In this document: positions 12,361 to 57,630 of the stretch, in pieces | Position numbering within the stretch: position 1 is the first letter of the stretch | Layout of the letters: each line of letters opens with the position of its first letter | Assembly (NCBI RefSeq): GCF_035084215.1 | Contig: NC_090363.1 | Span: 6,696,001-6,760,000, forward strand | Length of the DNA stretch: 64,000 bases | Direction: 5' to 3' | Source: Heptranchias perlo | Taxonomy: Eukaryota | The notes under the pieces: model-generated | Told to the model about the DNA's origin: nothing | Database searches by the model: none | What the model saw: the letters and a program-made list of their open reading frames with translations, nothing else | Translations under genes and position numbers: made by a program

Positions 12361-12417
12361 AACATTGCCATCCTCGCTGCTAATGCTCTTTGTCCTTCTA
12401 AAAGCTAAAAAGACAAC

Positions 12418-15795: not shown

Positions 15796-16002
15796 ATGGA
15801 TGTAATTTACACTACAAGCGCTATGTCCTTCAGCAGGGGTTGCGATCTGAGCCAGCGGGCTAGCTCGGAGCGGCGGACCACCGGATTCATCGGCCGCAAG
15901 CCTACAATGCCCCAGATCTTCACTTTCGAGCCGATCCGGGAAAATAAGAGACCCAACCGACGCAAGAGAAGATCCCTTAAAGTTCTCTATCCACCCCACC
16001 AG
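15796..16002 (+). CDS. ier3: IER3/IEX-1-like copy 1, exon 1 (gene 15796-16414, 165 aa)
   Basis: Kozak ACACCATGG at 15796. Encodes MDVIYTTSAMSFSRGC...PQIFTFEPI...RKRRSLKVLYPPHQ, matching the human IER3 motifs EIFTFDPL and RKRSRRVLYP. Donor CAG|GTACAA at 16002/3, phase 0. A second Met at 15823 (MSFSRGC) aligns with human MCHSRSC. Confidence 0.88.
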
Positions 16003-16123
16003 GTACAAATCTGCCAATGTTGCTGCAAAAACTAGTTCACGTTGATTATATTTCAAACTTTTTATAAAGCAATATCTCTCTCTCGTTTTTAACATGCTCC
16101 ATCTATCTTCTCTCTCTCTCCAG

Positions 16124-16414
16124 GTGAGGAGGTCCCTTCCTACCGAGAAGGACATGGCCAAGAGGCTGCTCCTGTTTTTAATCTCCGTTGTCCTCATCCA
16201 GGTGTACGGCGCCGTGGAAGACGAGCTCAGCCTCTCCTCTCCGGACCTGAGCGCTGCGACGCAAGTCTCGGCGTCTAGCCCGGCCCCTTCGGGCTTCTCC
16301 GCCACCGCCGTGCTCCTCGACACGTCCCCGGGAGCTGAAGCCAACTGCACCCAACAGCCTGCAGGAGGGGACTCGCTACAGGCGACCGGAGTCGTCCGAT
16401 CCTGCAGGATGTGA
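16124..16414 (+). CDS. ier3: IER3-like copy 1, exon 2
   Basis: Polypyrimidine tract plus CAG acceptor at 16121-16123 (121-nt intron). Encodes VRRSLPTEKDMAKRLLLFLISVVLIQVYGAVEDE, compared with human [33 protein letters not shown] (hydrophobic segment). Stop TGA ends at 16414. Confidence 0.9.
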   Translation: MRRSLPTEKDMAKRLLLFLISVVLIQVYGAVEDELSLSSPDLSAATQVSASSPAPSGFSATAVLLDTSPGAEANCTQQPAGGDSLQATGVVRSCRM

Positions 16415-17030
16415 ACTGCGAAATGATTAAATCGTCTATTTATTTAATTTTTTGGTCCCCCCCCCCTCCCCCGGGGGAAGGGTGAGAACTGTCTCCAGCA
16501 TAAACTGACCAGAGCTCAAAACACTGTTATTGCCTATAACAAGTGGACGGAAATATGATGAACACAGCAGTGAAGTCTGACTCTAAATTTCCAGAGACTT
16601 AAAGGGGTGGGAGCTGAAGTGTTTTCAGCTTCAGTGAAAGACATATTTTTCCAGTTGTAGTAATATGTAAAACTACTGTATTCTGCCGTGGATTCCCCAA
16701 TACCAATGACCTTACATGCAATATTGCTGCTTCGTTCGTAGTGGTTGTTACTAATATATGTGGGGAGCTTATTTAAGGTTTATCTATTTTATTTATCATA
16801 TTTATGGAAGTGTTTAATTTATACTATTTAATATGTAGAGGACTTATTTTCGAAGTAAGTCTTCCTTTTACACAGTCTGTGTCGAAGATCTCACCTTGCA
16901 GTGGGACTTGAAAACTCACTTTGTAACAAAGTCTGAGGTTGTTAGTGGATCAGCCAGTCGTTGCAATGCAGGGTGTCTCATCCATTTGATGCTAGTATGT
17001 TCTGTGAACAATTATTTGGTGAAATAAAAA
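16415..17030 (+). promoter_or_regulatory. IER3 copy 1 3' UTR with AU-rich elements, CDE hairpin and poly(A) signal
   Basis: Repeated TATTTA motifs (16437-16446, 16769-16831), TGTTC-TGT-GAACA hairpin at 16998-17010, AATAAA at 17023. Confidence 0.7.
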
Positions 17031-17368
17031 CATTTAAAAAATAAAAAAAACTAACCTTGAAAGAAAACTCTGATGGTGTTTTTCTATCTCCTGTGGCCAA
17101 ATAACATCTCGTGTTTCTAGCTTAGAGTTGGCGTCTTCCATTTAAAAAAAAACCCTTACTTTATATTTGAGTACTGCTAAGTCATAGGGGGTGAAATTGG
17201 ACATGGGCGGGGGATGCAAACAGGCAGAATTGCTTTAGCTGCCTGTTACACCACACAGCCAATATTCAGTGCTTTTGAAGTCCCTTTCTTATCTTCCTTT
17301 CTTGCACCCTTCTCTGATTTGCCCCAATCTTCCTTCACCAGCTCTCGTAGACAAACTCCCCAGACCAT

Positions 17369-17606
17369 GGGGGTGATTATAACCCCCAAGAACGGGTGGG
17401 TTGGGGGCGTGCGGGACTTGAAAATAATTGGGGGTTTTTTGGGTTGCAACTGCAAAATTTTCAAACTTTGAATTCCCAGTGGGAAGCCTGTCCTTTTACA
17501 CGCCCAAGTTGAACCCAGAAATAAAGCCGGGTTGCGGTCGCGACCCCAAAAAACAACTATTTTCAACTCCCACCTGCCCGTTCTTGGGGTTTGAAATCAC
17601 CCCCCC
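17369..17606. mobile_element. MITE-like element with long terminal inverted repeats
   Basis: GGGGGTGATTATAACCCCCAAGAACGGG at one end and CCCGTTCTTGGGGTTTGAAATCACCCCCC at the other. Confidence 0.8.
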
Positions 17607-20600
17607 ATGTGTTTGCTTGTTTTCTTGGCTTCATAGGAAATCTGTAGCCTGACCTCTGACCCATGCCTGGCCTGGGGGGTTGGCCATCAGGGCTGCCAAT
17701 TATTATTCACTATCATACTAGGTTACAGCACAGAAGGCGGCCATTCGGCCCATTGTGCTTGTTATGTCTTTTTGAAAGAGCTATCCAATCAGTCCCATAG
17801 CTCTGTATATTTTCCCCTTGAAGTATTAATCTAATTCCCTTTTGAATGTTACTATTGAATCTGCTTCCACTACCGTTTCAGGCAGCGCATTCCAGATCAT
17901 AACCGCTCTGCATTAAAAAAATGTTTCCTCATCGCCTCTGGTTCTTTTGCCAATCAATTTAAATCTGTGTCCACTGGTTACCGACCCTTCTGCCACTGGA
18001 AACTGTTTCTCCTTATTTGAACACCTCTATCAAATCTCCTCTTAACCTTCTCTGCTCTAAGGAGAACAGGTCCAGTCTCTCCACATAACCGAAATCCCTT
18101 ATCCCTGGTATCATTCTAGTAAATCTCCTCTGCACCCTCTAAGGCCTTGACATCCTTCCTAAAGTGCAGTGCCCAGAATCGAACATAATACTCCAGCTGA
18201 GGCCAAACCAGTGTTTTATAAAGGCTTGGCATAAATTCCTTGCTTTTTACTCTATGCCTCTATTAATAAAGCCCAGAATCCCGTGTGCTTTTTTAACAGC
18301 CTTCTCAACTGTTCCTGCCACCTTCGAAGATTTGTGTACATACACCCCCAGATCTCTCTGTTCCTGATCCCCTTTAAAATTGTACCATTGCCTCTCTTCA
18401 TTCTTCCTACCAAAATGTATCACTTCACACCTTGCGTTAAATTTCGTCTGCCACGTGTCTGCCCATTTCACCAGTCTGTCTATGTCCTCCTGAAGTCTGT
18501 TACTATCCTCCACATTGGCTACCACTTCTCCCTGGTTGGAGGAGGGCGGGGGTGGAGGGGTCCCTGGGAACTATCTCCTGCAGTTCGCAAATGAATAGCA
18601 CATTCCAATCCCTAATGTCCAAATGTTTGCTGGAATGTACTTCAACAAATCTCGGTTGTTTCAAACAATCTGGAATTATCTCGCTGTAACATACATCCTC
18701 CCACCTCATTTTAGGCCGCTGTGGGGAGATTTCAACCCCTTGTGAGCTAAACTTAATAGTAACATATTAATTACAATCATACCAATATTCTGACACTGCA
18801 AAATACTTAAGAATCCTGATACGTGACAACGCACAAGGTCATAGCTGAGCTTGTAAGGCGAGGCGTTACCCATCCATTGGACATAAGTAATCATAACCAT
18901 GACAAAGGTAACGTATCAGTGCAGATTATTGCCAAATGCTTAACCGTCGTTTGACCGGTGTGACTGCATTTCTCAGGCTATTCAAATCACCGGGGACAAA
19001 TGTTTGAGGGTTGGTGAAGCAATGGTTCATACCAAGTCAGGACACTTGCTAATATAATCCGCAAGCACCGCGGGCAAGTCCCATTGATACACCTGTATGC
19101 TATGCGAAATATTTAAGGAGAATTTCTTTTAAAGTACCGTTGACTCATGTATGAGGCTCAGGCACCTGTGTGAGTTATGTGGCACCGTCAAGTGACTCAT
19201 TTAAAACAGCGAACAGTCTGAACGCATTCAAAGTCAGTCGACCACATTAAGTATAATGTAAAAGCAAGATTTGCACCTTCAAGGTCGGTATGCCTGTATT
19301 TTCCTCAACGATGCAGGTTTGAGAAAAGTTAAAAATATTTTTAAAACACGAGGTAATCCACAATTGCCAGCCCTGTGTAAAAATAATCTGCTCTGAGGGA
19401 GAGATAAAGGACTATACCTTTATATGGCACCTTATCATGTCTGTCTCCTTTAAATGGATTAGATCATGAGGACAGGTTGCACAGACTAGGCTTGTATTCC
19501 CTTGAGTATAGAGGTTTAAGGGGTGATCTAATTGAGGTGTTTAAGATAATTAAAGGAGATCATGGGGTAGATAGAGAGAGAAACTGTTTCCTCTGATGGG
19601 GGAGTCCATAACAAGGGGGCATAACCTTAAAATTAGAGCTAGGCCATTCAGGGGTGATGGCAACGAAACTATCAGTGGGGGAGCGTAACAGGCAGCAGAT
19701 TCGATACTGTCTGTCTTGCACTACCAAGACGAATTTCTAACCCCAAGATCTTGCCAACAGTCCTCCATGCTCCGAGCTCTCTGGTTTCAATCTGTCCTTC
19801 AGGAAGTACAAGTCCCTATGAGGGGGGGCCTGATTGAGGTAGCACGGAGGAGAGCAGTGCGGTTGTCAGCAGCACCCCTCGTGACCGATGGGCCGATTCC
19901 CAAAAGCCCTGGCTGAAGGGGGCTGATTTGACGTGTGCGCTGCCCCTCTGGCAACTGAAGACTCCCACTCCTCTGATTTCCTCAACACTGCATGGTCCTC
20001 TGGCCCCCGGACGAGGGAAGGAAAGTCAACAGTCGAAGGTAAGTGTGACTGGAGACAACGTGATCATCTGTTCGAAAGCTAATCTCTGTGCACCGGACAT
20101 TTAGTTTGCATTTAAGGGGTTGAACATGATTGAACGGAGTTAGTATTTGTGGTTAATCCAAAGGAGCCAACAGTTCCAAGAGATGTTGATTCAGTGGATC
20201 ACGCTGGAGAATTTCCAAAAACCCTAAGACCCCACTGACTGTTTGTACTTTTCTATTATGTTTCCTACTTTTTGTTTGCTCAGCAAGGTGAAGGATGTTA
20301 GTATTGAGGAATAGAGCACTTTCCATTACAGGGAACACTGTCAGCATCAATCACTCTGGGGTCAGGTATAGCACGCTTAGATACAGAGTTTGGATCCCTT
20401 TACACTATCCCATCAAACACTGCCAGGTCAGGTACAGGATAAATATGGAGAAACTATTTCCTCTGGTGTGGGGAATCAAGAACAAGGGGACATAATCTTA
20501 AAAGTAGAGTGAAATCAGGAAGCACATCTCCACACAAATGGGTAGTGGAAATCTGGAATTACCTCCCTCAACAGGCTGTGGATGCTGGGACAATTGGAGC

Positions 20601-23410
20601 TTTCAAGACTGAGATTGATAGATTTTTATTAGGTAAGGGTATCAAAGGATATGGAGTACAGGCAGGTACATGGAGTTGAGGTATAAATCAACCATGATCT
20701 AATTGAATGTCAGAGCAGACTCCAGGGGCTGAATAGGAACAGGAGGAGACCAATGTGGGCATGTTACTACAGTACAGGTTAGATGCAGAGTAATGGATCA
20801 TACTATTGTGAGATGTGCAATGGCTTGATTTCAATTACATTCCTTTCTTAACAGAAAGTCAAATATGGAAAACTCTGCAGGCTCCAAAACCAATAGCTTA
20901 TGAATGCTTAATGTGATTGTCTGACATTCTCCTCGCTCTGCTGCTTTAGCAGAGGTGTTAAAACCATCTATTTTAAACTGGTTAATGCCTCCACTAAAAT
21001 AGCAGACAGTGAAATTCCAAATGACCATATTAAGTGTCCGCACACTGGAATCCCAGGGGACAGTCTCTTCCATCCTCACTTTAGTTAAATTAAGTCATGT
21101 AAAATTCTGCTTAGTTGTTCGTGATTCTACCTTGCTAACATAAAGCTTTTCTTTTTTTGCTGTCTCGTGGGAACAAAGTTAATGCTCAAAGCAATGATTA
21201 TTTATTAGCCAAATGCAAGAATCCAGAATGATAGCACCAGGAGGCCTACATAACAGATGCGTGGGCACGTGCGCATGTGTGTGAGAGAAAAATCCAAATA
21301 TGGACATTTTTGTGTTGTTAGTGTTTTGTATATATTATACAATGACACACTAAAGCCTAGAAATAACTACAGGCATTATTATTGGACAAATGTTTAATAT
21401 GTTCCAACAACATTCGCATTTCTGCTAATTTAAAAGAAGCGCTCAAATATTTCTAGGCTGTGGTGATTAATGTTAACTGGATTTTGTTCTGAATGTTAAG
21501 ACAACAGATCAGAACAGCTCTCTTTGCCGAAGCTTCTTTAACATGAGTTTTAATCAGGTTCAGGACAAATTGCTGTTGTTTTCTCCAATGTAAGTGGCCA
21601 TTGAAATTGATAATCAGTGCTTTTATGTTGCTGTTTCAGTTTTGGTAAATAGCAGCTGCCCAGTGCTATCCGTATTTATATTTCCACGTGGTGCAATTCT
21701 CCACTGGATTGCGGCTCGCAAATCCGGTGACGGTTTACAAGGCTTGTGTGTCTCCACCGCCACTGGGAGTGTCAGCCGAGATTTTGTGCTCAAGTCTCTG
21801 GAGTGGGGGTTGAACCCACGACCTTGTGACTCAGAGGCGAGAGTGTGGTCACAATCGCGTAACACATTCATACTCATTCCCCTGTCCGCTATTTTAGCAG
21901 ATAGCACGCGTAAAAGGCCAGGAAAAGAACAACTGGTCTGTCCAGACGGGCACCATTAAGGCGTGATTCCCCCTCCCCCAGTTATGAATCTCCTGGGAGA
22001 GGCAAAAGAACGGAAAGAAAAATTTTAGACCAATTTAGTGAGAAGCTCTGGTAAATTCCACTCTGACCCTGAGGGTGATCTTGCAAAGCTCCAGGAGACC
22101 GCAGTCCATTGTATTCCTGTCATCTTCCCTTTCTACACCACAACAGTCTGTAAAGAGATGAAAAAGGACAGGGAATATCAGCATTAATGCATTTGAAATA
22201 AATGAGTCAATGCCTACATTAAAGTAGGAGGCAGAGGAAGGTCAAATGACGAAGTTATGTGTTCATCTGCTAATATGTATAACCTTGAAATTATACACTT
22301 AAAAGCTTTGCTGCCTTCAAAGGAATGTCGGGGCAAAGTTGGCAGTAGGACAAAACGGGTGATAGCGAACTGGCAGCCCATTTTATACCCTGCCTGGCTT
22401 TCTTTTCATTGACTTCGATGGGAAGGAAAATCGGGCAGGGTCTAAAACAGGCTGGGCCTGATGGGCCGAACGGCCTCCTTCTGTGCCGTAAATTCCTACG
22501 ATTTCTCGGCTGCCGCTTTGCTATGGCCCGTTTTTTTTTAAAACTGACCAGGACAAATTTCACCCTCAGCATCTTGCAGCGGTGGAAGGTGGGGAGCTGT
22601 TCGAGGGATTGTGGGGTAGAAATTCGTGTTGGGCGCGAGCGCTAAACGGCCGCCCGCGGGGCGTATAACGGGCGGCCGGTACCACACCGCCTGTTCTGCG
22701 TTAGCGCCCAAAGTGAATTTCTGCCCCTGTGTGTCTTAAACTGGCAAGATGGCTTTTTCTGTCACAGAAAAGGCTGTCCAAGCAGATTGACCTTTGACTT
22801 TCTATACTCCAAGTACGCAAATATTACCGTCTGCTCTGAAGTACTTGGAATCAGGTTACTGCAGTTGTGGCTTATTCCTTATGCTTCACTAATGTTTAAT
22901 TTGCAAATAATTATCACTGTCGTTTCACCTTGTACTAGTCTGGTCCTGCATTCGGTATTTCCTCTTTCCAAGTAGACTGAAGGAGTGGTGGAAATCTTAA
23001 GTAAAGTGCTGGCTGAGCTCAGTTGTGAATGATCTTACCTCTGAGTCAGAAGGTTACGGGTCTAATCCACACCAACGCAGCACCCCCTTAGTCTAGATTA
23101 TGTGCTCAAGCCTTGGAGCAGGGCTCGATCCCCACAACCTTCTAACTCAGGGGTGCGAGTGCTGAGGGAATACGTCGAATTACATCGAATGTACAGCACA
23201 GAATCAGGCCATTCGGCCCAACTGGTCCATGCCGGTGTTTATACTCCACATGAGCCTCCTCCCACCCTACTTCATCGAACGCTATCAACATAACCCTCTA
23301 TTCTTTTCTTCCTCCTGTGTTTATCCAGCTTTCCCTTAATGCTATTCGCCTCAACCATTCCCTGTGGTAGCGAGTTCCACATTCTAACCACTCTTTGGGT
23401 AAATACGTTT

Positions 23411-23863
23411 AGAATCATAGAAGTTTACAACATGGAAACAGGCCCTTCGGCCCAACATGTCCATGTCGCCCAGTTTATACCACTAAGCTAGTCTCAGTTG
23501 CCTGCACTTGGCCCATATCCCTCTATACCCATCTTACCCATGTAACTGTCCAAATGCTTTTTAAAAGACAAAATTGTACCCGCCTCTACTACTGCCTCTG
23601 GCATCTCGTTCCAGACACTCACCACCCTTTGAGTGAAAAAATAGCCCCTCTGGACCCTTTTGTATCTCTCCCCTCTCTCCTGAAATCTATGCCCCCTCGA
23701 TATAGACTCCCCTACCTTTGGGAAAAGATTTTGACTATCTACCTTATCTATGCCCCTCATTATTTTATAGACTTCTATAAAATCACCCCTAAACCTCCTA
23801 CTCTCCAGGGAAAAAAGTCTCAGTCTATCCAACCTCTCCCTATAAGTCAAACCATCAAGTCCT
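23411..23863 (-). mobile_element. CR1 3' fragment, same subfamily as 61288-62433
   Basis: Near-identical translation (TYRERLDRL...KHLDSYMGKMG). It interrupts an older LINE 3' fragment. Confidence 0.85.
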
Positions 23864-25729
23864 GAGATTGGATTTATTAGTGACTATCTTTTATTTATGG
23901 CCCCTAGTTTTGGTCTCCCCCATAAGTGGAAATATTTTCTCTACCCCATCAAACCCATTCATAACCTTAAATAACTCTATCAGGTCACCGTCAGTCTTCT
24001 CTTTTCTAGTCTGCAGGTTAGACGTGGCCCTATTCTGGTGATTCAGGCCGAAATTAAAGATCCCTTGAAACTATTTGAAGGAGAGCAGGGAGTTCTCGCG
24101 GTGTCTTCAATAACATTTCCCCTCAGCAGCTGTTTGTGCGCAAAATATAATGAAAAGCAAGAAGCTATAAAGCTAAAGAAAAAAAATCATGAAAAGTTTT
24201 GATAGAGTAAATAAGGAGAAACTGTTTTACACTGGCAGGAGGGTCGGTAACCAGAGGCAAGATGAGGAGACATTCTTTTACGCGGCGAACTGACGCGATC
24301 TGGAAATCGCTGCCTGAAAGGGCGGTGGGAGCAGATTCAATAGTAACTTTCAAAAGGGACTTGGATAAATACTTGAAGGGGAAAAATTTACGGAGCTATG
24401 GGGAAAGGGCAGGTGTGTGAGAGTAATTGGGTAGCTCTTTCAAAGAGCCGGCATAGGCATGATGGGCCGAATGGCCTTGTTCTGTGCTGTATCATTCTGT
24501 GATTACATTAATTTGCAATTTTTCCTTCTTTACCAAATACCTCTGCAGCAGTACATTAACTTTCCTAAGTTGTTCTGTTTAAATTCCAGCCTTCAATTCA
24601 AAACCTCCTTACAAGCCTGAATGCGTGTACAATTCATTCTGCAGTTGTTTTTGGAATCTTGTCTTAGAAATTATACAAAATGCATCTGGAATGCGCTACA
24701 AAACACAAATAAAAATTCCAACATTTCAAAGTGTCCCTGTAAATGTTTCCACTTCAAGGATTTACGCAAGTCCCCCTTTGAAAGTTACTATTGAATCTGC
24801 TTCTACCGCCATTTCAGGCAGTGCATTCCAGATCATAACAACACGCTGCGTTAAAAAAAAATGTCTCTCCATCTCACTTCTGGTTACCAACCCTTCTGCC
24901 ACTGGAAAAAGTTTCTCCTTATCTACTCTATCAAAAAGCACTTCCATTTATAAAGTGCCTTATCATCGTCCGCAGGATTTCTCAGTAATAGGCTGCTGGT
25001 GATTGGAGAATGAGGGGTGGTCTGACCGAGGGGTGATCTGATCCCACCATGCACCCTCCGTAAACTTGAGCTCAGCTGAAAACTCTGCTGTTGGTATCCT
25101 ACTTCGCACCAAGGCGCTTCATAGGAGCGGTTATCAAATGAAATTTGACACCGAGCCACATAAGCAGATCTAGGAAAGCTTAGTCAAAGAGATAGGTTTT
25201 AAGGAGCATCTTAAAGGAGGAGAGAGAGGTAGAGATGCAGGAAGGTTTATGGAGGGAATTTCAGAGCTTAGGGCTTCGGCAACTGAAGGCACGGTCGCCA
25301 ATGATGGAGCGTTGGGGATGCGCAAGAGGCCAGAATTGGAGGAGCGCAGAGATCTCAGATGGTTGTAGGGCTGGAGGAGGTTACAGAGATAGGGAGAGGG
25401 TGAGGCCATGGATGCATTCGAAAAAAAAAGGGTAAAAATTTTAAAATCGAGGCGTTGCCGGACCGGGAGCCAATGTAGGTCAGTGAGCACAGGGGCTGAT
25501 GAGTGAATGGGACTTGGTGTGAATTAGGATACGGGCAGCAGAGTTATGGATGAGCTCAAATTATTAGTAATTAGAAGGTGATGCAATGCCCATGAAAGAG
25601 GGAGTGACAGAATTACAGATTTCTCTCCCTGATTACAGGTGATGGAATCAGTCTCACAACAAACCCATCTGCTCCTCTTCAATCTTCTGTACACCAGTGG
25701 GAGTTGTTATAAGCTGAATAGCCCAGTAG

Positions 25730-25915
25730 TGAAGGGGAGAATACTAGAGCTTGGTCTTCAGTTGCTTCCAAGCCTTTATTCGCAGAGCTCCACATTACAC
25801 ACCCCACACCCTAGATAAGCTCTTTTATATATGGATGCACGCGAGCCCCAGTTGATAGACACCACCTGAATACAATTAACACTAATTGATATAAATCACA
25901 TGGATACAATTAACA
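25730..25915 (-). mobile_element. Possible solo LTR
   Basis: TG...CA ends, minus-strand TATA-like and AATAAA motifs, and an imperfect 4-bp flanking repeat (GTAG/GGAG). Confidence 0.3.
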
Positions 25916-26411
25916 GGAGTGACCCCGGTCTTATGCTGTGAGTGACCGACCAATTGCCAATCATCCTTCTTTCGGGAGAGTGCCACTAGTAAGTTTCAAA
26001 TTGACCCTCCTAAATTTAAAAAAAAACTTACATTGCAGGAATTATTTAGAAGAATGTAAAAAAACCACTGCAGCGAAAAGCAAAACTATTTGCTCCTGCA
26101 ATAAAAACTTCTGCGAAGGACCAATTGGACAGAACCTCCTTGATCCACACACGCTGGCTGAGCTGGTGAGCATTTCCAACATTAGAACCATAGAATCTTA
26201 CAGCACAGAAGGGGGGCCATTCGGCCCATCGTGCCTGTGCCAGCTCTTTGAAAGGTCTATCCAATTAGTCCCTCTCCCCCTGCTCTTTCCCCATGGCTCT
26301 TACATGCTCTGTTTTTATTTCAGATTTGCAGCATTTTGCTTTTTGTCCCACTGGGCTCCAAATCCAAGTGAATTTTTGCACCCCAAAAAAACTCACCCAA
26401 CTCAGGTTTAG

Positions 26412-26551
26412 CCAATCAACGCACAGGGGAGGCGGGGCTCGGTGTCATCTGCCATTTGCTGGCAGGGAGAAGGCGGGGCATTCGATGATTGACGTCCCCG
26501 CTAACCAATCACCAGCTCGCTGGCGTCCGCCAATCACCCAGGTGTATAAAA
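26412..26551 (+). promoter_or_regulatory. IER3 copy 2 promoter
   Basis: CCAAT at 26412, 26505 and 26530, GC boxes, CRE-like TGACGTC at 26490, TATAAAA at 26545. Confidence 0.7.
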
Positions 26552-26633
26552 GGAGTCGGTGCCGCAGTGATGTCTTCATATCCCTGACCAGCGAGTTTGA
26601 AGGCGGTTCCCAGTGCAGTGGCCCGAGAGACCG

Positions 26634-26813
26634 ATGTATTCTGCAGTCGCCCCCATCAGTCTGCCGCTCCCCCGCTCAACGGGGAAGCTTTACAGCCTCG
26701 ACAGCCGGAGGCACACCGAACCCGAGGTCTTCACCTTCGAGCCGATCCCAGAGCCCAAACACGGGTACAGACCCAAGAAGCGGCCACTTAAAGTCCTTTA
26801 TCCAATTCACCGA
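26634..26813 (+). CDS. ier3: IER3-like copy 2, exon 1 (gene 26634-28543, about 200 aa)
   Basis: ATG at 26634 lies downstream of TATAAAA. Encodes MYSAVAP...EPEVFTFEPIPEPKHGYRPKKRPLKVLYPIHR. Donor CGA|GTAAGG at 26813/4, phase 0. Confidence 0.85.
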
Positions 26814-26864
26814 GTAAGGATCCTGCTGCTTTAGTGCAGAGGCTAGAGAAATATAGTTTAGATT

Positions 26865-27882
26865 TGTTGTTGATTCTAGAGAAATAATTTAGTTTGATTT
26901 TGATTCTGGAGAAATTTAATTTGATTTTGATTCTGGAGAATCATAATTTAGTTTGATTTTGATTCTGGAGAAACATAATTTAGTTTGATTTTGATTCTGG
27001 AGAAATTTAATTTGATTTTGATTCTGGAGAATCATAATTTAGTTTGATTTTGATTCTGGAGAAACATAATTTAGTTTGATTTTTGATTCTGGAGAATCAT
27101 AATTTAGTTTGATTTTTGATTCTGGAGAATCATAATTTAGTTTGATTTTGATTCTGGAGAATCATAATTTAGTTTGATTTTGATTCTGGAGAATCATAAT
27201 TTAGTTTGATTTTGATTCTGGAGAATCATAATTTAGTTTGATTTTGATTCTGGAGAATCATAATTTAGTTTGATTTTGATTCTGGAGAATCATAATTTAG
27301 TTTGATTTTGATTCTGGAGAATCATAATTTAGTTTGATTTTAGTTTCTGGAGAATCATAATTTAGGTTGATTTTGATTCTGGAGAAACATAATTTAGGTT
27401 GATTTTTGATTCTGGAAAATCATAATTTAGGTTGATTTTTGATTCTGGAAAATCATAATTTAGGTTGATTTTTGATTCTGGAGAATCATAATTTAGGTTG
27501 ATTTTTGATTCTGGAGAATCATAATTTAGGTTGATTTTTGATTCTGGAAAATCATAATTTAGGTTGATTTTTGATTCTGGAGAAACATAATTTAGGTTGA
27601 TTTTTGATTCTGGAAAATCATAATTTAGGTTGATTTTTGATTCTGGAGAAACATAATTTAGGTTGATTTTTGATTCTGGAAAATCATAATTTAGGTTGAT
27701 TTTTGATTCTGGAAAATCATAATTTAGGTTGATTTTTGATTCTGGAAAATCATAATTTAGGTTGATTTTTGATTCTGGAAAATCATAATTTAGGTTGATT
27801 TTTGATTCTGGAGAATCATAATTTAGGTTGATTTTTGATTCTGGAGAATCATAATTTAGGTTGATTTTTGATTCTGGAGAAA
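26865..27882. repeat. About 32-34-bp AT-rich minisatellite in the intron of IER3 copy 2
   Basis: Unit GATTCTGGAGAATCATAATTTAG(T/G)TTGATTTT(T), about 30 copies. Confidence 0.95.
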
Positions 27883-27886
27883 TACA

Positions 27887-28001
27887 CTGGGTAATTTTAA
27901 CCTAACTTGCCAGGCGGGAATCCCACAGGATTAAGTGGAAAGCTGGTTTTACACCCTGCCCAATATTACTCTCCGGGCAGGTTAGGTTAAAAGTGTCCCA
28001 G
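27887..28001. mobile_element. MITE-like element in the IER3 copy 2 intron
   Basis: TIRs CTGGGTAATTTTAACCTAAC and GTTAGGTTAAAAGTGTCCCAG. A longer relative lies at 48445-48635 and a half copy at 62723-62815. Confidence 0.75.
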
Positions 28002-28120
28002 TAGTTTTAGGTTGGTTGTGATTTGGAAATAACAAACTCCTGTAGAAATCCAGTGTTTGAAGATTGCTGCCAAGGATCGCCCGTTAACCAGATTTTTATC
28101 TTGTATTTTTGGTTCCGCAG

Positions 28121-28543
28121 CCTCGGAGGGCCCTCCCTGCCAAGAAGGACATGACCAAGAGGCTGTTCCTGCTTCTCGTTTCCATCGTTGCCTTCCAGGT
28201 GTACAGCGCCACGGAGCAGTGTGAAGATGAGCCGAGTCTGGTCTCCGAGGGAATGGAGCCAGAAATGAGGAGTGAACTCGCCCATCCTATTGAGGCATTT
28301 TGGATGTCTGATTCTGCTGCCCTCCCGGCTCCTGCCTCCCCGCGAGGAGAACGGGCCAATTCCACGTTGTTTCTATCCGACGTCCACCTCACACAGACGC
28401 TCGAGGGGCGGATTTTCAACTTAACTGAAGTCTGTGGGCATTTAGAAATCGGGCGGTTTCTGTGCGGGGCGATCATGACGCCTGCTTTACATTCGGTCGG
28501 TAAGTTGAAAGTCTCCCCCCACCTGTGCGAAAGCAGCGATTGA
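28121..28543 (+). CDS. ier3: IER3-like copy 2, exon 2
   Basis: Acceptor tttttggttccgcag ends at 28120 (1307-nt intron). Encodes PRRALPAKKDMTKRLFLLLVSIVAFQVYSATEQCEDE..., homologous to exon 2 of the other copies but with a longer C-terminus. Confidence 0.85.
   Translation, partial: PRRALPAKKDMTKRLFLLLVSIVAFQVYSATEQCEDEPSLVSEGMEPEMRSELAHPIEAFWMSDSAALPAPASPRGERANSTLFLSDVHLTQTLEGRIFNLTEVCGHLEIGRFLCGAIMTPALHSVGKLKVSPHLCESSD
28405..28519. mobile_element. MITE-like inverted repeat inside IER3 copy 2 exon 2
   Basis: GGGGCGGATTTTCAACTTA at one end and TAAGTTGAAAGTCTCCCCC at the other. Confidence 0.6.
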
Positions 28544-29179
28544 GCGCTGGGGTTTGGATCGAGCGGCTCATTCTACCGAGCATGCGTCACCGCAGTTTTC
28601 TGAGCGGTTTACAACCCCGAGCGGCTCCTCACTTGGGCTCGTTGACGCCCAGGAGCGATGAGGGCCTCAAGACATGAAGGAGAACTGAGTTTTCAAACAA
28701 TTCGCAGAACAAAAATGCTCCAGGACTGCATGTCGAGATTGTAAAATAGGGCCGAATATATTGTCTTCTGCAGTTAGTGTTGAATTGCCAACAAATGAAG
28801 AATTTTATTGAATGGAAATTGCTAGTATTTGCATTCTGATTGCTAGCAAATGTGTAGGTTATTTAATTTATTCATATTTGGAATATTTTTGCCTTGAAAT
28901 ATTTCAAGTTATTTATTCTTGTGACTCGTCGTGTAATATTTTGTCCGATTTACTTTTAGGTGGGGGTGTTTTTCCAGAATTTTGGTTATATGGGGTGAGA
29001 TCAACTGTCAGGGAACCCATGCTATTTAAGATGATCTAACACTCTATTGATAATGGATAATCAGGAAACTTCAGGTTTGCATTGACAAACCGCTTGGGAA
29101 GGAACTAAATATATAAGGGGATAGATTAGCATCTTCACTACCTGGGTGGTAATCTGTTACAGCACTGACTTCATGTCCA

Positions 29180-29560
29180 CCTTGGCTCAATCAGCAGCAC
29201 TCTTGCCTCTGAATCAGAAGGTTGTGGATTCAAGTCCCACCGCAGGCACAAAATCTAGGCCTGACGCTCCAGTGCTGCACTGTTGGGGAGAGCCATCTTT
29301 CACATGAGACATTAGACCGAGGCCCCGTCTGCCCCCTCGGGTGTACGTAAAAGATCCAAAGGCACTATTTTGAAGAGCAGGAGAGTTTCCCCCCCCCCCC
29401 CCCCCCCCCCGGTCTCCTGGCCAATGTTTTTCCCTCAACCAACATCACTAAAACAGATTATCTGGTCATTATGTTTGTGGGATCTTGCTGTGCGCAAATT
29501 GGCGGCCGGGTCTCCTACATCATAAGTGACTATACTTCAAAAGCATTTCATTGGTTGTTA
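29180..29560 (+). mobile_element. tRNA-derived SINE with a Deu-like core
   Basis: tRNA-like head (TGGCTCA...GGATTCAAGTCCCAC) and core ATGAGAC..TA.ACCGAGGCCCCGTCTGCCC. Other copies lie at 1825-2145, 2468-2790(-), 31505-32050, 34020-34195(-), 37190-37395 and 49180-49330(-). Confidence 0.7.
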
Positions 29561-32500
29561 CATAGTCCACAATATAGAAACAGGCCATTCGGCCCAACTT
29601 GTCGATGTCGGTGTTTATGCTCCACACGAGCCTTCCACCCCTTTTCATCTCACTCTATCAGCATATCCTTCTATTCCTTTCTCCATGTGCTTATCTAACT
29701 TTCCCTTAATTGCAGAAGGGGATGTCCTGAGGTCATGAAAGGTGCCATATAAATGCAAGTTATTTCCTTTCTTTCTTTAATAGAGCCATGGAGAGGAAAC
29801 GAGGCAAAGGGATGAGGGAGGGTTCCATATAGAGTAGATGTTCCCCACCACCAGGCAATGAAGATGAAAATCTGTTGCAACATTTTAAGTAAATGCCTAC
29901 AGCTGCCTTCAAAGTATTTATGGTAAAACGGGCTGCTGTAACCTCTGACCATGAAACTAGGTGCAGCCATGGGTGAAGCTGCGTTCTACCTTGAGGTCTC
30001 TCCTTAGATGCAAACTGGAGGGTTCATGGTGTCAGAAGTGTGCTGCCTGCAGAACCGCAGTTTGCGGAGGCTGAGGTTCTGGGTTTTAATGGGACTAGCC
30101 CTAACTCTGAACTTTAGTGCTCCGATGGAGATAATTGTGGAATTTTTCATAATTTCATGTTAATTTATCAAAATGATTTAATTTATTGTCATATTTAAAT
30201 GTATTTATTTTTCGATGGCCTCTTTATTGTATTTGAAATCTTTGTATTTAAATTTTGGAGTTAATGTATTTGACAGATGTGATGGCCAAGGGCAGGAATT
30301 ACCCTTGGTGAAGTTCATCTCTAAATGCTTAAGGTGCTTGTACTATATTTCTGCGTGCACAACCTTTAAACCTGGCTTTAACATGCCTATTTTAAAAATG
30401 TCTTAAATGTTTCCCTACAGTGACTGCACTTTAAAAGTGCTTAATTGACTGAAGCGCCTTGGTACGTCCTGAGGTTGTGAGAGGTTGCTATATAAATGCT
30501 GCTTTCTTTCATACACAGGGGTGCAGTACAAGCACATGGAGCATTCCTGCATGAACTTTCCAAATTTCATCCTACCTCCCGCCCATCCCCATCTCATCTC
30601 CCTGCTGCAGCTTACTTGAGAAAGTTCAGCAGCCCGAGGGATTGGGGTGGGACTAGCCAGTCTCATCACTTCACGATCTGAATGATCAACAGGTTTGACA
30701 CTGGTGTTGCCTGTGTGGAGTTAAGGGGTTGGAGATCGAAATATTTGATTTGAAGTCGTGCCTTTTCACATGGTTTGTTATGTTATCAAGTGGCTTAACG
30801 TCAAGACAGAATGTTGTGATGCAATAAAAACTCTTATTTATTAAAGTAGCCGTAATAGTTATTCATTGGATGCATTTTTGCTGGGAGATTTCCTCTTTTT
30901 AAACACAAAACAACTTATGAAGCCAGTGTGAGTCATAACGTGAACTCTCTTGGGGCCATTAGCCCGAAGATTGTTTACTTGATTGAGCAGATGACCACGC
31001 ATTGAACAACCCAAATGGCTAGGAAAACATCCCATAATCCAGCACAGATGCCCCTCGTCTAGACCACAAAACTCTCACCAAAGCGAACGATTCAAACCCA
31101 TTTTTTTATTAAGAGAAAGCTGGAAATCTGACATTGAAAACCATGCTGGAAATACACAGCGGTGTCGAAAATCGCCTTGGTCGATAACACAAAATGGGCA
31201 GGATTGCATTGGCCGCCTATTATTCTCCCCGCTCTTTATTCAGATCCATTGCGGTCAGCGGAATTGAGTATCAGGCTGGACATACCTGAGGGAAGGTTTT
31301 CTGCTTCTGTGCTCCCCTTTAAAATGAGCAGGTGAAAAATCATAAGCCGGGGAGTATGGATTCAGATCAGCCATGGTCTAATTGAATGGTGGAACAGGCT
31401 TGAGGGGCTGAATGGCCTGTTCTTGTGTTCCTGTGTAATAAGTGACCAGCACCATAACTCAACATCAGGTGTGAATGTATCAAATGATACATGATCTAAC
31501 CCTGGTGCCATGGCTCAGTGGTAGCTCTCTTGCTCTGCATCAGAAGGTTGTAGGTTCAAGTCCCACTCCAGATACTTAAGATAAGAACGTAAGAAATAGG
31601 AGCAGGAGTTGGCCATATGGCCCCTCAAGCCTGCTCTGCCATTTAATAAGATCCTGGTTGCCCTTTGCCCTCAGACTTTCCTGTCTGATCCCCGATTCCC
31701 TTGAGCACATAATCTAGGCTGACGCTCCCTGTGCAGTAATGAGGGAGTGCTGCACTGTCAGAGGTGCCGTCCTTTGGATGAGACGTTCAATTGTCTGCCC
31801 TCACAGGTAAAAGATCCCGTGGCATTTTTTCGAAGACGAGCAGGGGAGTTCTCGCTGGTGTCCTGGCCAATACTTATCCCTCAATCAACATCACTAATCT
31901 GGTCATTATCACATTGATGTTTGTGGGATCCTGCTGTGTGCAAATTGGTTGCTGTGTTTCCTACATTACAACAGTGTCTACACTTCAAAAGTATTTAATT
32001 GGCTGTAAAGTGATTTGGGACATCCAGAGGACATGAAAAGTGCAAGTCTTTTTCTCATGGTGGTGAATAACTCCTACTGGGTGGCAGGGGGCTAAAACAG
32101 AAAGTCCAGAGGCTGCTAAATAATTCTCACAAATAAAACACGTTCCACACACCTGCAACCCCCTCAACATCACATCAGTCTCGTATGGAGTCCGACTGAT
32201 TTGGTTACAAAGATTGCCACTGAATCTGCTTCATGAAATGGGTCCTCAGCTCATCTGCTAAATGATTTGTTTTGACTGGGAGGCAGGAAATCAATGGCAA
32301 AGATCACAGGTTTTCAGCAAAAATGGACAGATCACAGAATGCAATTCCCCAAAAACATTGGCACAAATCCAAAGCAATAAAACTAGAATTACGCTCAGTC
32401 ACAGTGGGCCAGACCGTAAAGAAACATCATAAAATGTCTTTTAATAATAACATTTACATAGATAATTCCTTATTACCTTGCCAAAACATCCTAAAGTACT

Positions 32501-33489
32501 TCAGGAAATGAAGTACTTTGAAGTGTGCTGCCTGTTATGGGGGCAAATATAGTAGCTAATTTTTGCACAGCAAGATCCCACATTCAGTAATGATAACCAG
32601 TTAATCAGGAGTGTGGTGGAATACTCTCCACTTGCCCCGATGGCTGCAGCTGCAGCAACACTCAAAAAGCTCAACACTCAGGACAAAGCAGCCCATCCAC
32701 CACCCTAAACATTCACTCCCTTCACCATCGGCGCACCGTGGCTGCAGTTTGTACTATCTACAGGGCACACTGCAACAACTCGCCAAGGCTTCTTCGGCAG
32801 CCACCTCCCAAACCCACGACCTTTTAGAAGGACAAGGGCAGCAGGTACATGGGAACAACACCACCTCCAAGTTCCCCTCCAAGTCACACACCATCCCCAC
32901 TTGGAACTCGCGACCTCTACCACCTAGAAGGACAAGGGCAGCAGGCACATGGGAACACCACCACATGCATGTTCCCCTCCAAGTCACACACCATCCCGAC
33001 TTGGAAATATATCGCCGTTCCTTCATCGCCGCTGGGTCAAAATCCTGGAACTCCCTACCTAACAGCGCTGTGGGAGAACCTTCACCACACGGACTGCAGC
33101 GGTTCAAGAAGGCGGCTCATCACCACCTTCTCAAGGGCAATTAGGGATGGGCAATAAATGCCGGCCTCGCCAGCGACGCCCATACCCCCAGAATGACTGT
33201 TTAAAAATCTATTTTTTGGGGGGAAGGAGTGGGGGGGGGGGGAATGCTGCTTGAGGGAGCAATCTTGGACATTATCCAATTTCTGCCCTTCCAATAGTGA
33301 CACGGGTTCCATAGAAAATCAGGCAAAGGGGAATATTCAGGTTTAGCGTCTCACCCAAAGGACTGATTCAGTCGGTCCTTTGGTTCCAAAGTGCGTTCGT
33401 TTGTGTAACGTGGACAGTTTCAAATGAATAGGATACGAACGAGATGAGAATGCGGGGCTCCTGTCTCCTCTTGACCAAACCCCGTGAGT

Positions 33490-33750
33490 GGGACATTTTC
33501 TACGAATTTTACGTTTCGGAAATTTCATCTGCGTCCAGACACCAATCCAATCCGGCCAATCGGGTAACTGAAATGGGGTGGGACTTCTCATGGGTACCAA
33601 TGAAAGTGCAAGGATACCATCAGCCCCGGGTAGGGGGCTGGACCTGTCCAACCCACCAGGAATGGTACAAAGAGGGGAGGAAGCGGCGGAGGAGCGAGCA
33701 CATCTGAGGCTTGGGGCAGGGTCGACGCTCACCTGTGTGGCTTAAAATCC
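33490..33750 (+). promoter_or_regulatory. IER3 copy 3 promoter
   Basis: kB-like GGGACATTTTC at about 33490 and GGAAATTTC at about 33518, clustered CCAAT boxes at 33542-33600. No canonical TATA box. Confidence 0.5.
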
Positions 33751-33782
33751 TGCTTCGTTCCCCCTGGTTAAACGATACCATC

Positions 33783-33938
33783 ATGTGTCTGGCGAGAACC
33801 TGCGTCGGTTCCACCGGCTTCCCCGGCCACTCCAGCCGGAGTCAGCCTTTGGTTTTCACCTTCGAGTCCATCCCGGAGCGCGTACCCAAAATCCGAGTCA
33901 AGAAGCGATCTCGGCGAGTCCTCTATCCCCCTCATCAG
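33783..33938 (+). CDS. ier3: IER3-like copy 3, exon 1 (gene 33783-34685, 148 aa)
   Basis: Encodes MCLARTCVG...VFTFESIPERVPKIRVKKRSRRVLYPPHQ, the closest of the three to human MCHSRSC...KRSRRVLYP. Donor CAG|GTACAT at 33938/9, phase 0. Confidence 0.9.
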
Positions 33939-34394
33939 GTACATGTCTTGCCCATTTTAACAAAGAAAGAGCTTTCATATATATATATATATAGGGGTAT
34001 ATATATATATAGAGAGAGAGAGCCTTTCAGGACGTCCCAACGCGATTTACAGCCAATTAAGTATTTTTTTTTGAAGAGCAGTCACTGTTGTAATGGGGCG
34101 GCCAATTTGCGCACAGCAAGATCCCACAAGCTGCAAGAATGACCAGATCGTCTGTTCTTAACGGTGTTGGTTGAGGATAAATATTGGCCCAGGATAAACA
34201 GTTGGCTATTCAGAAAACTCTTTTTTTGCAATTAAAGTTGTATCCCACTATAATTATTAAATGACATTTCCAAAATTAGATGTATATTTTAGGGAATTTT
34301 ATTGGTTATAAGAGTAGCTTTAGTCATTACAATTATATCAGTGTGGATCTCTCGTTTTTAACATGCTCTATCTATCTTCTCTCTCTCTCTCCAG

Positions 34395-34685
34395 GTGAGA
34401 AGGTCCCTTCCTACCGAGAAGGACATGGCCAAGAGGCTGCTCCTGTTTTTAATCTCCGTTGTCCTCATCCAGGTGTACGGCGCCGTGGAAGACGAGCTCA
34501 GCCTCTCCTCTCCGGACCTGAGCGCTGCGACGCAAGTCTCGGCGTCTAGCCCGGCCCCTTCGGGCTTCTCCGCCTCCGCCGTGCTCCTCGACACGTCCCC
34601 GGGAGCTGAAGCCAACTGCACCCAACAGCCTGCAGGAGGGGACTCGCTACAGGCGACCGGAGTCGTCCGATCCTGCAGGATGTGA
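34395..34685 (+). CDS. ier3: IER3-like copy 3, exon 2
   Basis: (CT)n-CCAG acceptor ends at 34394 (456-nt intron). The 291-nt coding part differs from copy 1 exon 2 at only 2 positions by eye. Confidence 0.9.
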   Translation: MRRSLPTEKDMAKRLLLFLISVVLIQVYGAVEDELSLSSPDLSAATQVSASSPAPSGFSASAVLLDTSPGAEANCTQQPAGGDSLQATGVVRSCRM

Positions 34686-35300
34686 ACTGCGAAATGGTTC
34701 AATCGTCGATTATTTGTTTTTTTTGTCCCGGGGGGAATCGGTCGAATTTTCTCCAGAGACATTATTAGCGGGTACACATTCCGTGTGACTACTGAGGGAC
34801 CCATCAGTGAAAGACTGAAGCATGTTTTCTACACGTCAGTATTGTGTGTGTGCTGAAGACCCGTTGAAAGCGAACTTGGGACTCGTATCTGAAACCAAAA
34901 GTTGATGTAACGCGTTTGGCGTCTTGCATTCCTTGAGAAATTCAGGACTTTAAATCTATCTGAGTCCAATACTGGTGTTACTTCAGTTAATGTGTTATTT
35001 TGTTTGAGCTAACTAAATGCACTAACAGTTTGCACAAAACGTTTATAATTTAAATATTTATATATTGCATGTTTATTTATACTGTATATGGATGTATTTA
35101 TGTCTTGATTTGTACAAATATGTCTGAACTTACTGGGTAAGTTCCATGTTGATAATCTCCCCCGTTGGGTAGAGCTAGAAAATTCACTTGTACCAAAGTC
35201 TGGGGTTTTTTGGATCAGCCATCCATGTCAATACATGTTTGTCTTTTCTGTACCATTTGTTATGTTCTAGGAACAAAGATTTGCAGCGATTTAAAATAAA
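34686..35300 (+). promoter_or_regulatory. IER3 copy 3 3' UTR with AU-rich elements and poly(A) signal
   Basis: ATTTA cluster at 35045-35102, hairpin TGTTC-TAG-GAACA at 35263-35275, AATAAA at 35295. Confidence 0.65.
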
Positions 35301-57252: not shown

Positions 57253-57630
57253 ATGCCGGAGAGCGCGACCAAGGTCATCGCCAAGAAAGGCGCCAAGAAA
57301 GCGGCCTCCAAGTCCCACCACAAGGGCGACAAGAAGCGGAGGAAGGCCCGCAAGGAGAGCTACGGCATCTACGTCTACAAGGTGCTGAAGCAGGTGCACC
57401 CGGACACGGGCATCTCCTCCAAGGCCATGAGCATCATGAACTCGTTCGTCAACGACGTCTTCGACCGCATCGCCTGCGAGGCTTCCCGCCTGGCCCACTA
57501 CAGCCGGCGGCACACCATGTCCTCCCGGGAGATCCAGACCGCCGTCCGCCTCCTGGTGCCCGGCGAGCTGGCCAAGCACGCCGTGTCCGAGGGCACCAAG
57601 GCGGTCACCAAGTACACCAGCTCCAAGTGA
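57253..57630 (+). CDS. H2B: Histone H2B, divergent variant
   Basis: 125-aa ORF with [26 protein letters not shown]...[26 protein letters not shown] and octamer-like box upstream, stem-loop downstream. Confidence 0.97.

What the first reader, a model, noticed from the sequence alone, without database searches (positions are those of the whole stretch)
16075..34716. Exon-limited homogenisation: copies 1 and 3 share a near-identical exon 2
Seen: the 291-nt coding parts of exon 2 (16124-16414 and 34395-34685) differ at only two sites (AGG/AGA silent, ACC/TCC T to S). Identity extends about 45 nt into the intron and decays about 30 nt past the stop. Exon 1, most of the intron and most of the UTR are strongly diverged, and the intervening copy 2 is not affected. 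Inference: recent or ongoing gene conversion or exon shuffling over 18 kb gives proteins with variable N-termini on a constant hydrophobic-segment/C-terminal module.
Basis: partly seen in the sequence, partly recalled or inferred. Interest (0 to 1): 0.8.

Follow-up and report, generated by a model that had tools for sequence, protein, structure and literature searches.

The report
Shark IER3 paralogs share converted exon
Two very old neighbouring copies of a shark stress-response gene (IER3-like) differ everywhere except in one exon that is 99% identical, most likely because that exon was recently copied from one gene onto the other; this is a clean new example of a known process.

Summary
Observation confirmed. 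The window holds three tandem two-exon IER3/IEX-1-like genes of a shark; a fourth, inverted copy lies about 86 kb upstream. Copies 1 and 3 share a 347-nt tract (45 nt intron, 291 nt coding exon 2, 11 nt UTR) with 3 mismatches and one microsatellite indel, while exon 1 is saturated at silent sites. Exon-1 trees put copies 1, 2 and 3 in separate groups that each contain sharks and rays, so the genes are ancient. It is not an assembly artefact: read-derived contigs fork into and out of one exon-2 contig of about double depth, and both genes are spliced. It is not constraint: a related organism's copy-1 ortholog differs at 22 of 291 sites, mostly amino-acid changing. Best explanation: recent non-allelic gene conversion, probably copy 1 to copy 3, confined to the only block still alike. 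A separate 41-residue tract in horn shark and a weaker one in lamniform sharks suggest recurrence; two rays and the catshark/houndshark pairs show none. The 'variable head on constant module' design is not supported. Known process, with a shark precedent (sparc-L/scpp); this locus was not found in print.

The parts
15796..16002 (+). Copy 1 (type A) exon 1 coding part, 69 codons: FTFEP motif, basic stretch, VLYP
   Evidence: the spliced 165-aa product is on record as XP_067829807.1
16003..16123 (+). Copy 1 intron, 121 nt, GT..AG
   Evidence: joint skipping 121 nt in contigs of runs X5, X9, X12
16124..16414 (+). Copy 1 exon 2 coding part: hydrophobic segment (residues about 15-33), Ser/Thr/Pro-rich stalk, one NCT sequon
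16079..16425 (+). Homogenised tract, copy 1 side (347 nt; likely donor)
   Evidence: direction
16426..16499 (+). Decay zone after the tract (82% then 68% identity to copy 3), possibly the remnant of an older, longer tract
16771..17046 (+). Distal 3' UTR of copy 1 with ATTTA motifs and AATAAA at 17023 and 17040; 74% alike to the distal UTR of copy 3
   Evidence: an RNA-type contig ends at 17021
26634..26813 (+). Copy 2 (type B) exon 1 coding part, not converted
   Evidence: product on record as XP_067829808.1
28121..28543 (+). Copy 2 exon 2 coding part, not converted (79% over 86 nt to copies 1 and 3)
33783..33938 (+). Copy 3 (type C) exon 1 coding part, 52 codons
   Evidence: spliced 148-aa product on record as XP_067829809.1
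33939..34394 (+). Copy 3 intron, 456 nt, GT..AG, with a (TA)n run and an interspersed repeat at about 34027-34194
   Evidence: joint skipping 456 nt in run X7
34395..34685 (+). Copy 3 exon 2 coding part, 289 of 291 identical to copy 1
34348..34696 (+). Homogenised tract, copy 3 side (likely recipient)
   Evidence: direction
35036..35313 (+). Distal 3' UTR of copy 3 with ATTTA motifs and AATAAA at 35295

Best explanation
Copies 1 and 3 are ancient IER3-like paralogs whose exon 2, with a little intron and UTR, was most likely made near-identical by recent DNA-level non-allelic gene conversion, probably from copy 1 onto copy 3. Shown: the sharp 347-nt island, the old age of the two genes (exon-1 ortholog groups spanning sharks and rays), a far larger exon-2 distance to a related organism's ortholog than to the paralog, and splicing of both genes. 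Inferred: conversion needs a homologous template, and exon 2 is the only long block that is still alike (exon 1 is saturated, the introns differ in length and repeat content, the promoters do not align), so each event renews the identity that permits the next. Inferred: the replacement is tolerated because the part after the hydrophobic segment is weakly constrained. Copy 2 lies in between but is too diverged to serve as a template. Inferred age: a few million years, at most about 35 My. The same exon was likely converted separately in horn shark and perhaps in lamniform sharks.
For: 2 of 291 paralog differences against 22 of 291 (plus 9 inserted bases) to organism B's copy-1 ortholog, Fisher p=2.5e-5. 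Species-specific residues (L19, I20, G29, T46 and others of exon 2) are shared by both paralogs and absent from organism B. Exon-1 tree of 30 rows: types A, B, C each form one group (support 64/93, 99/96, 100/99); exon-2 tree joins the two genes of this species at 100/99; AU test rejects type C as one clade in exon 2, p=2e-58. The tract includes 45 nt of intron and 11 nt of UTR and then decays in steps. Direction: the first 53 residues of the shared exon are closer to type A than to type C in 7 of 7 other species with both genes (77/75, 72/64, 66/49, 64/51, 66/43, 53/43, 53/44 percent). Recurrence: Heterodontus A and C share a 41-residue identical run (49 of 53 in the first block, 19 of 46 after it) that reaches into the variable stalk, while no between-species A-C run among the 8 species exceeds 17; Cetorhinus A and Carcharodon C share 36 identical residues. 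Precedent in sharks: PMC9122587.
Against: Copy 3 of organism B was not seen in any of 4 runs laid, so there is no DNA-level within-species pair outside this species; all other species were compared as proteins only. Without this species' copy 3 the AU test does not clearly reject type C as one exon-2 clade (p=0.25; p=0.041 when Heterodontus C is also removed), so deeper or repeated conversion rests on run lengths. The run-length permutation is inflated by the conserved hydrophobic segment: of 80 A-C pairs, 4 reach p=0.0002 and one of these (Scyliorhinus A with Carcharodon C) is not lineage-matched. 5 of 8 species pairs show no tract. One event or many cannot be told apart from a single genome. 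Exon-2 codon 43 (S here, D in organism B and Pristiophorus type A, S in shark type C) hints at some flow in the opposite direction.
Confidence: 0.9

Rival explanations
1. Assembly or polishing artefact: reads of one exon 2 were written over the other.
For: Two short near-identical segments 18 kb apart are the kind of place where polishing can err; the DNA runs may be the source of the assembly and are held only as contigs.
Against: In DNA run X3 a single 317-nt exon-2 contig (depth 77) has two entries (copy-1 intron, depth 31.5; copy-3 intron, depth 48.1) and a copy-3 UTR exit (depth 38), and no diverged exon 2 at 80% or more likeness was laid. RNA-type run X5 forks from exon 2 into both UTRs; run X7 joins copy-3 exon 1 to exon 2 and shows both letters at 34575.
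Confidence: 0.02
2. Extreme purifying selection keeps exon 2 unchanged in both genes.
For: The hydrophobic segment is the best conserved part of the family.
Against: Silent sites, intron and UTR bases are shared too; the ortholog in organism B differs in 20 codons, 16 of them amino-acid changing (6 of the 16 lie beside insertions and are alignment-dependent); orthologs in other sharks are only 64-77% identical in the first 53 residues.
Confidence: 0.01
3. Copy 3 is a young chimera made by exon shuffling or unequal crossing-over: a copy of copy 1's exon 2 joined to another first exon.
For: The end product looks the same; a double crossover or a one-off duplicative insertion that replaced the old exon cannot be excluded from one genome.
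Against: Type C genes with their own homologous exon 2 exist in sharks and rays; both flanks of the tract (intron, mid-UTR) are copy-3 specific; copy 2 between them is intact; no displaced old exon 2 was found in 264 kb around the cluster or genome-wide.
Confidence: 0.05
4. The exon was overwritten through an RNA or cDNA template of copy 1.
For: The island is nearly exon-sized, the genes are transcribed and the region is rich in retroelement sequence.
Against: 44 of 45 intron bases before the splice acceptor are shared, which a spliced template cannot supply; exon 1 and most of the UTR, also present in the mRNA, are untouched.
Confidence: 0.02

Closest known systems
Shark sparc-L / scpp non-allelic gene conversion (PMC9122587; section 7 and matching passages read)
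   Same: Tandem paralogs dating from the elasmobranch ancestor; conversion limited to particular exons; converted parts group by species in sharks, unconverted parts by ortholog; rays show no conversion.
   Different: There the tracts cover 5' exons and group by species across the sharks sampled; here it is the last exon, it is complete in one species, partial in one or two lineages and absent in catsharks and houndshark, and it skips an intervening paralog.
Regional conversion in clustered protocadherin variable exons (PMC1852091; matching passages read)
   Same: Divergent 5' part on a 3' part homogenised to over 99% among neighbouring paralogs, lineage-specific.
   Different: Protocadherins have many paralogs and shared constant exons; here two stand-alone genes each keep their own exon-2 copy, and a rise in GC3 is not clearly shown (0.77 against 0.65 and 0.75 in unconverted copies).
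IER3 / IEX-1 (immediate early response 3)
   Same: Database names for all three products; features listed for IER3 orthologs in PMC12025315 (one passage read): putative transmembrane segment, glycosylation site, basic nuclear localisation stretch; homologs in coelacanth, gecko, turtle and teleosts are recovered.
   Different: Four paralogs on one contig here, with types A-D in other sharks and rays; bony vertebrates are recalled to have a single gene (not tested). No Pfam model matches.

Membership tests
Non-allelic (interlocus) gene conversion tract | Local paralog identity far above the rest of the gene, silent and non-coding sites included | tested here: met
   pS 0.013 against 0.72-0.75 in exon 1; intron 44 of 45, UTR 11 of 11
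Non-allelic (interlocus) gene conversion tract | Paralogs within a species closer than orthologs between species in the tract, orthologous grouping outside it | tested here: met
   2 against 22 of 291; exon-1 against exon-2 trees; AU p=2e-58
Non-allelic (interlocus) gene conversion tract | Duplication much older than the tract | tested here: met
   Types A, B, C each include shark and ray proteins
Non-allelic (interlocus) gene conversion tract | Non-reciprocal transfer without change of copy number | tested here: inconclusive
   Direction A to C favoured in 7 of 7 comparisons; flanks and copy 2 intact; no population or pedigree data
Non-allelic (interlocus) gene conversion tract | GC bias in the converted tract | tested here: inconclusive
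   15 sites GC here and AT in organism B against 6 the other way, binomial p=0.078; GC3 0.77 against 0.65 and 0.75
Recurrent concerted evolution across sharks | Species- or lineage-specific pairing of A and C exon 2 in several lineages | tested here: inconclusive
   Clear in 2 of 8 species pairs (runs of 60 and 41 residues), weak in 1 (15; 36 across two lamniforms), absent in 5; proteins only; AU p=0.25 without this species' copy 3
IER3/IEX-1 family | Sequence homology to named IER3 proteins of bony vertebrates | tested here: met
   E=2.2e-9 to a gecko IEX-1, 4.1e-7 to coelacanth IEX-1; turtle 2.5e-13 with the profile
IER3/IEX-1 family | Hydrophobic segment, glycosylation sequon, basic stretch | tested here: met
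   19-mer mean hydropathy 1.9, NCT sequon; basic stretches in exon 1; features as listed in PMC12025315
IER3/IEX-1 family | Immediate-early induction by stress or growth factors | not testable with these tools
   Only contigs were laid; ATTTA motifs in the UTRs are suggestive only
Variable-first-exon / constant-exon clusters (protocadherin, UGT1A type) | Several first exons spliced to one shared constant exon | tested here: not met
   Each first exon is spliced to its own adjacent exon 2 (121-nt and 456-nt joints) and each has its own UTR; long-range splicing was not tested

The most novel reading that the evidence does not exclude
Exon 2 of the type A and type C IER3-like genes is a standing exchange site in sharks: two paralogs older than the shark-ray split have re-synchronised their membrane segment and stalk independently in several shark orders, never in rays, are still exchanging in living populations (one of the two differences appears to segregate in the sequenced animal), and selection keeps the exchange because the two proteins need a matching membrane module under different promoters and cytosolic heads. 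With sparc-L/scpp this would point to a shark-wide tendency, owed to slow sequence change, for very old paralogs to stay convertible.
Probability: 0.15. Interest if true: 0.6.

Novelty: new member of a known kind. Interest (0 to 1): 0.35.

Why it matters
It is a compact, well-bounded case of conversion between paralogs that split before sharks and rays did, with an unconverted paralog in between as a built-in control, so tract length, direction and recurrence can be measured across shark genomes. It also warns that whole-protein trees and short-read mapping will mis-assign these genes. The four-paralog IER3-like cluster of sharks and rays was not found described in the searches run. The process itself is textbook and a near-identical pattern is published for another shark locus, so a specialist would find it neat, not surprising.

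Tried and rejected
Pfam gives no family for the four products or exons tested. No run holding the stretch is on record as RNA; the runs treated as RNA are guesses, supported only by their spliced joints. Copy 3 of organism B had no cover in runs X10 and X11, and no second exon-2 contig appeared in X9 and X12: no evidence either way. MHC linkage: none of 43 MHC class I matches lies on the cluster's contig, a flotillin search found nothing (uninformative for split exons), and PMC10751288 has no occurrence of IER, TOR4 or FLOT1 in its main text (its supplements were not read and may list the locus); left open. Promoters of copies 1 and 3 do not align (score 19). GC-biased conversion: not significant. 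Literature: searches for IER3+shark (3 papers, none on this), IER3+cartilaginous+MHC, IER3+paralogs+duplication, IEX-1+elasmobranch (0) and Heptranchias perlo+gene conversion found no description of this cluster; only listings were seen for these. Rows dropped before trees: Scyliorhinus torazame C and Rhincodon C (predicted C-termini looked mis-modelled), also Hemiscyllium C (long branch); type D and bony-vertebrate rows were left out of both. Structure and complex prediction were not run: they do not bear on the claim.

Full report
What is there. They are the second exons of two genes in a tandem of three on the + strand: copy 1 (15796-16002 and 16124-16414), copy 2 (26634-26813 and 28121-28543) and copy 3 (33783-33938 and 34395-34685), all with GT..AG introns in phase 0 and open frames. 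The three products are on record as 'radiation-inducible immediate-early gene IEX-1-like' of Heptranchias perlo, XP_067829807.1.808.1 and .809.1. A fourth, inverted paralog lies about 86 kb before the window. No further copy or loose exon-2 fragment was found in 264 kb around the cluster, and the 381-nt tract has exactly two matches in the genome. Homology to named IER3 proteins of gecko, coelacanth and turtle is significant; the hydrophobic segment, NCT sequon and basic stretch fit the features listed for IER3 in PMC12025315 (one passage read).

Shape of the island. Between copies 1 and 3 the identity is 44 of 45 in the last intron bases (plus a 2-nt (CT)n indel), 289 of 291 in the coding exon and 11 of 11 after the stop: 347 nt with 3 mismatches. 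It then falls to 82% over 34 nt, 68% over the next 28-40 nt, and chance level in mid-UTR (z=1.7); the distal UTRs align again at 74% (z=11.6). The rest of the intron is at chance level. Exon 1 is saturated at silent sites (pS 0.72-0.75) against pS 0.013 in exon 2; all other pairs of the four copies have exon-2 pS of 0.58-0.66.

Artefact test. In DNA run X3, which may be the source of the assembly but reflects reads and not its consensus, exon 2 is one 317-nt contig (16109-16425) at depth 77, entered by a copy-1 intron contig (31.5) and a copy-3 intron contig (48.1) and left by a copy-3 UTR contig (38); no diverged exon 2 was laid at 80% likeness; the copy-1 UTR had no cover in that run. Run X5 shows the 121-nt joint and forks into both UTRs. 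Run X7 shows the 456-nt joint of copy 3 and both letters at 34575, the copy-3 letter at roughly the depth of the copy-3 exon-1 and UTR contigs (contig depths are a weak measure). One detail is inferred from contig coordinates: the copy-3 intron contig of X3 runs to 16138 with one mismatch and 12 extra letters, and shares the 30 letters 16109-16138 with the copy-1 path, so it carries G, the copy-1 letter, at the silent site. If X3 is the assembled animal, copy 3 is heterozygous there (or the assembly has a one-base error), and only one coding difference may be fixed.

Constraint test. Runs X9 and X12 of a different organism (B) hold a spliced copy-1 ortholog: 6 differences in 200 nt of exon 1 (X9), 22 listed differences plus 9 inserted bases in the exon-2 coding part, and 69 in exon 2 plus UTR together. 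Of 20 changed exon-2 codons 16 change the residue; 6 of these lie beside the insertions and depend on the alignment. So exon 2 drifts between organisms at about the rate of the UTR, while the paralogs differ by 0.7% (Fisher p=2.5e-5). With the rate quoted in PMC9122587 (Ks about 0.2 per 100 My), pS 0.013 gives about 6 My, with an upper bound near 35 My from the 95% interval 0.0003-0.07; this is a rough inference.

Age of the genes and direction. Searches returned type A, B, C and D proteins from sharks and rays. Split at the exon junction, exon 1 gives three ortholog groups, each with sharks and rays, while exon 2 joins the two genes of this species at 100/99 (30 rows, 2 type-C rows dropped). 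Holding type C together in exon 2 is rejected (p=2e-58), but not once this species' copy 3 is removed (p=0.25; 0.041 with Heterodontus C also removed) (29, 28 and 27 rows). The shared exon is closer to type A than to type C in 7 of 7 other species with both genes, and begins and ends like type A, so copy 1 is the likely donor. Codon 43 hints at some reverse flow.

Recurrence. In 8 species with both genes the longest identical A-C run in exon 2 is 60 (this species), 41 (Heterodontus), 15 (Cetorhinus), 10 and 7 (two Scyliorhinus), 4 (Mustelus), 4 and 6 (two rays). The Heterodontus run extends into the variable stalk and differs from the sequence here (75-77%), so it is best read as a separate event. 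Cetorhinus A and Carcharodon C, both lamniforms (recalled taxonomy), share 36 residues. A permutation over variable columns gives p=0.0002 for 4 of 80 A-C pairs, three lineage-matched and one not, so the test is partly driven by the conserved hydrophobic segment. Recurrence is therefore likely for Heterodontus, suggestive for lamniforms and not seen elsewhere.

How it most likely works. From established knowledge of recombination, conversion copies sequence from a homologous template and needs a stretch of high identity. Exon 2 is the only such stretch left: exon 1 is saturated and gapped, promoters do not align, and the introns differ in length and repeat content. The conserved hydrophobic segment anchors homology, each conversion restores it, and the weakly constrained stalk tolerates replacement (inferred). 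The stepped decay after the stop fits older, longer tracts (inferred). Shared intron bases point to a DNA template. Copy 2 is nearer but only 79% alike over 86 nt. Whether selection favours the shared exon is untested; neutrality is the simpler reading, as 5 of 8 species do without it.

Comparison and verdict. The same pattern is published for shark sparc-L and scpp: exon-limited conversion in sharks, none in rays (PMC9122587, section 7 read), and regional homogenisation for fugu protocadherins (PMC1852091, passages read). Earlier AI notes of this scan report similar islands at other loci, which I did not check and count only as a sign that the pattern is not rare. Five searches found no description of this cluster or tract; papers outside the open library and unread supplements may hold one. 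Verdict: real, well supported, a new member of a known kind.

Noticed in passing
G000:C42:6609350-6610816 (minus strand; L009:1246-2711): Fourth IER3-like paralog (type D), intact, inverted, about 86 kb before the window; orthologs in sawshark, bamboo shark and an electric ray. Its VRKYLP..KKD motif is the one closest to the coelacanth protein.
   Followed up: partly
L017:7968-9380 (minus strand): A 471-aa single open frame with torsin domains (PF06309, PF21376) between copy 4 and the window; resembles an intronless torsin-4A-type gene (name recalled), which may help place the cluster among MHC paralogous regions.
   Followed up: no
window 57253-57630: Histone H2B-like open frame with several unusual substitutions near the N-terminus.
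   Followed up: no
L025:2076-7218 (minus strand): Three C-type lectin domain exons about 2 kb apart, each domain in a single exon, just after the window.
   Followed up: no
window 26843-27883: About 1 kb tandem repeat of a roughly 32-33 nt unit fills most of the copy-2 intron; a 29-nt unit array lies at 12412-14416, 1.4 kb before copy 1.
   Followed up: no
window 16124-16222, 28121-28219 and L009 exon 2: The first 33 codons of exon 2 have lower silent divergence among all four copies (pS 0.32-0.52) than the exon-1 cores (0.51-0.80): either older conversions across the cluster or codon-level constraint.
   Followed up: partly
window 34697-34720: In the post-stop decay zone copy 3 matches organism B's copy-1 ortholog at 16429 where copy 1 of this species differs, and run X3 shows an allele in this zone of copy 3 that differs from run X5 and the assembly.
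   Followed up: partly
window 16771-17046 and 35036-35313: Distal 3' UTRs rich in ATTTA keep 74% identity between copies 1 and 3 in spite of an unalignable mid-UTR: conserved mRNA-decay elements or an old conversion tract.
   Followed up: partly
proteins P0070, P0082, P0083 and P0022, P0061, P0062: Hemitrygon has three near-identical type-C entries on one contig length, suggesting a further recent expansion in stingrays; Mobula has three isoforms.
   Followed up: no
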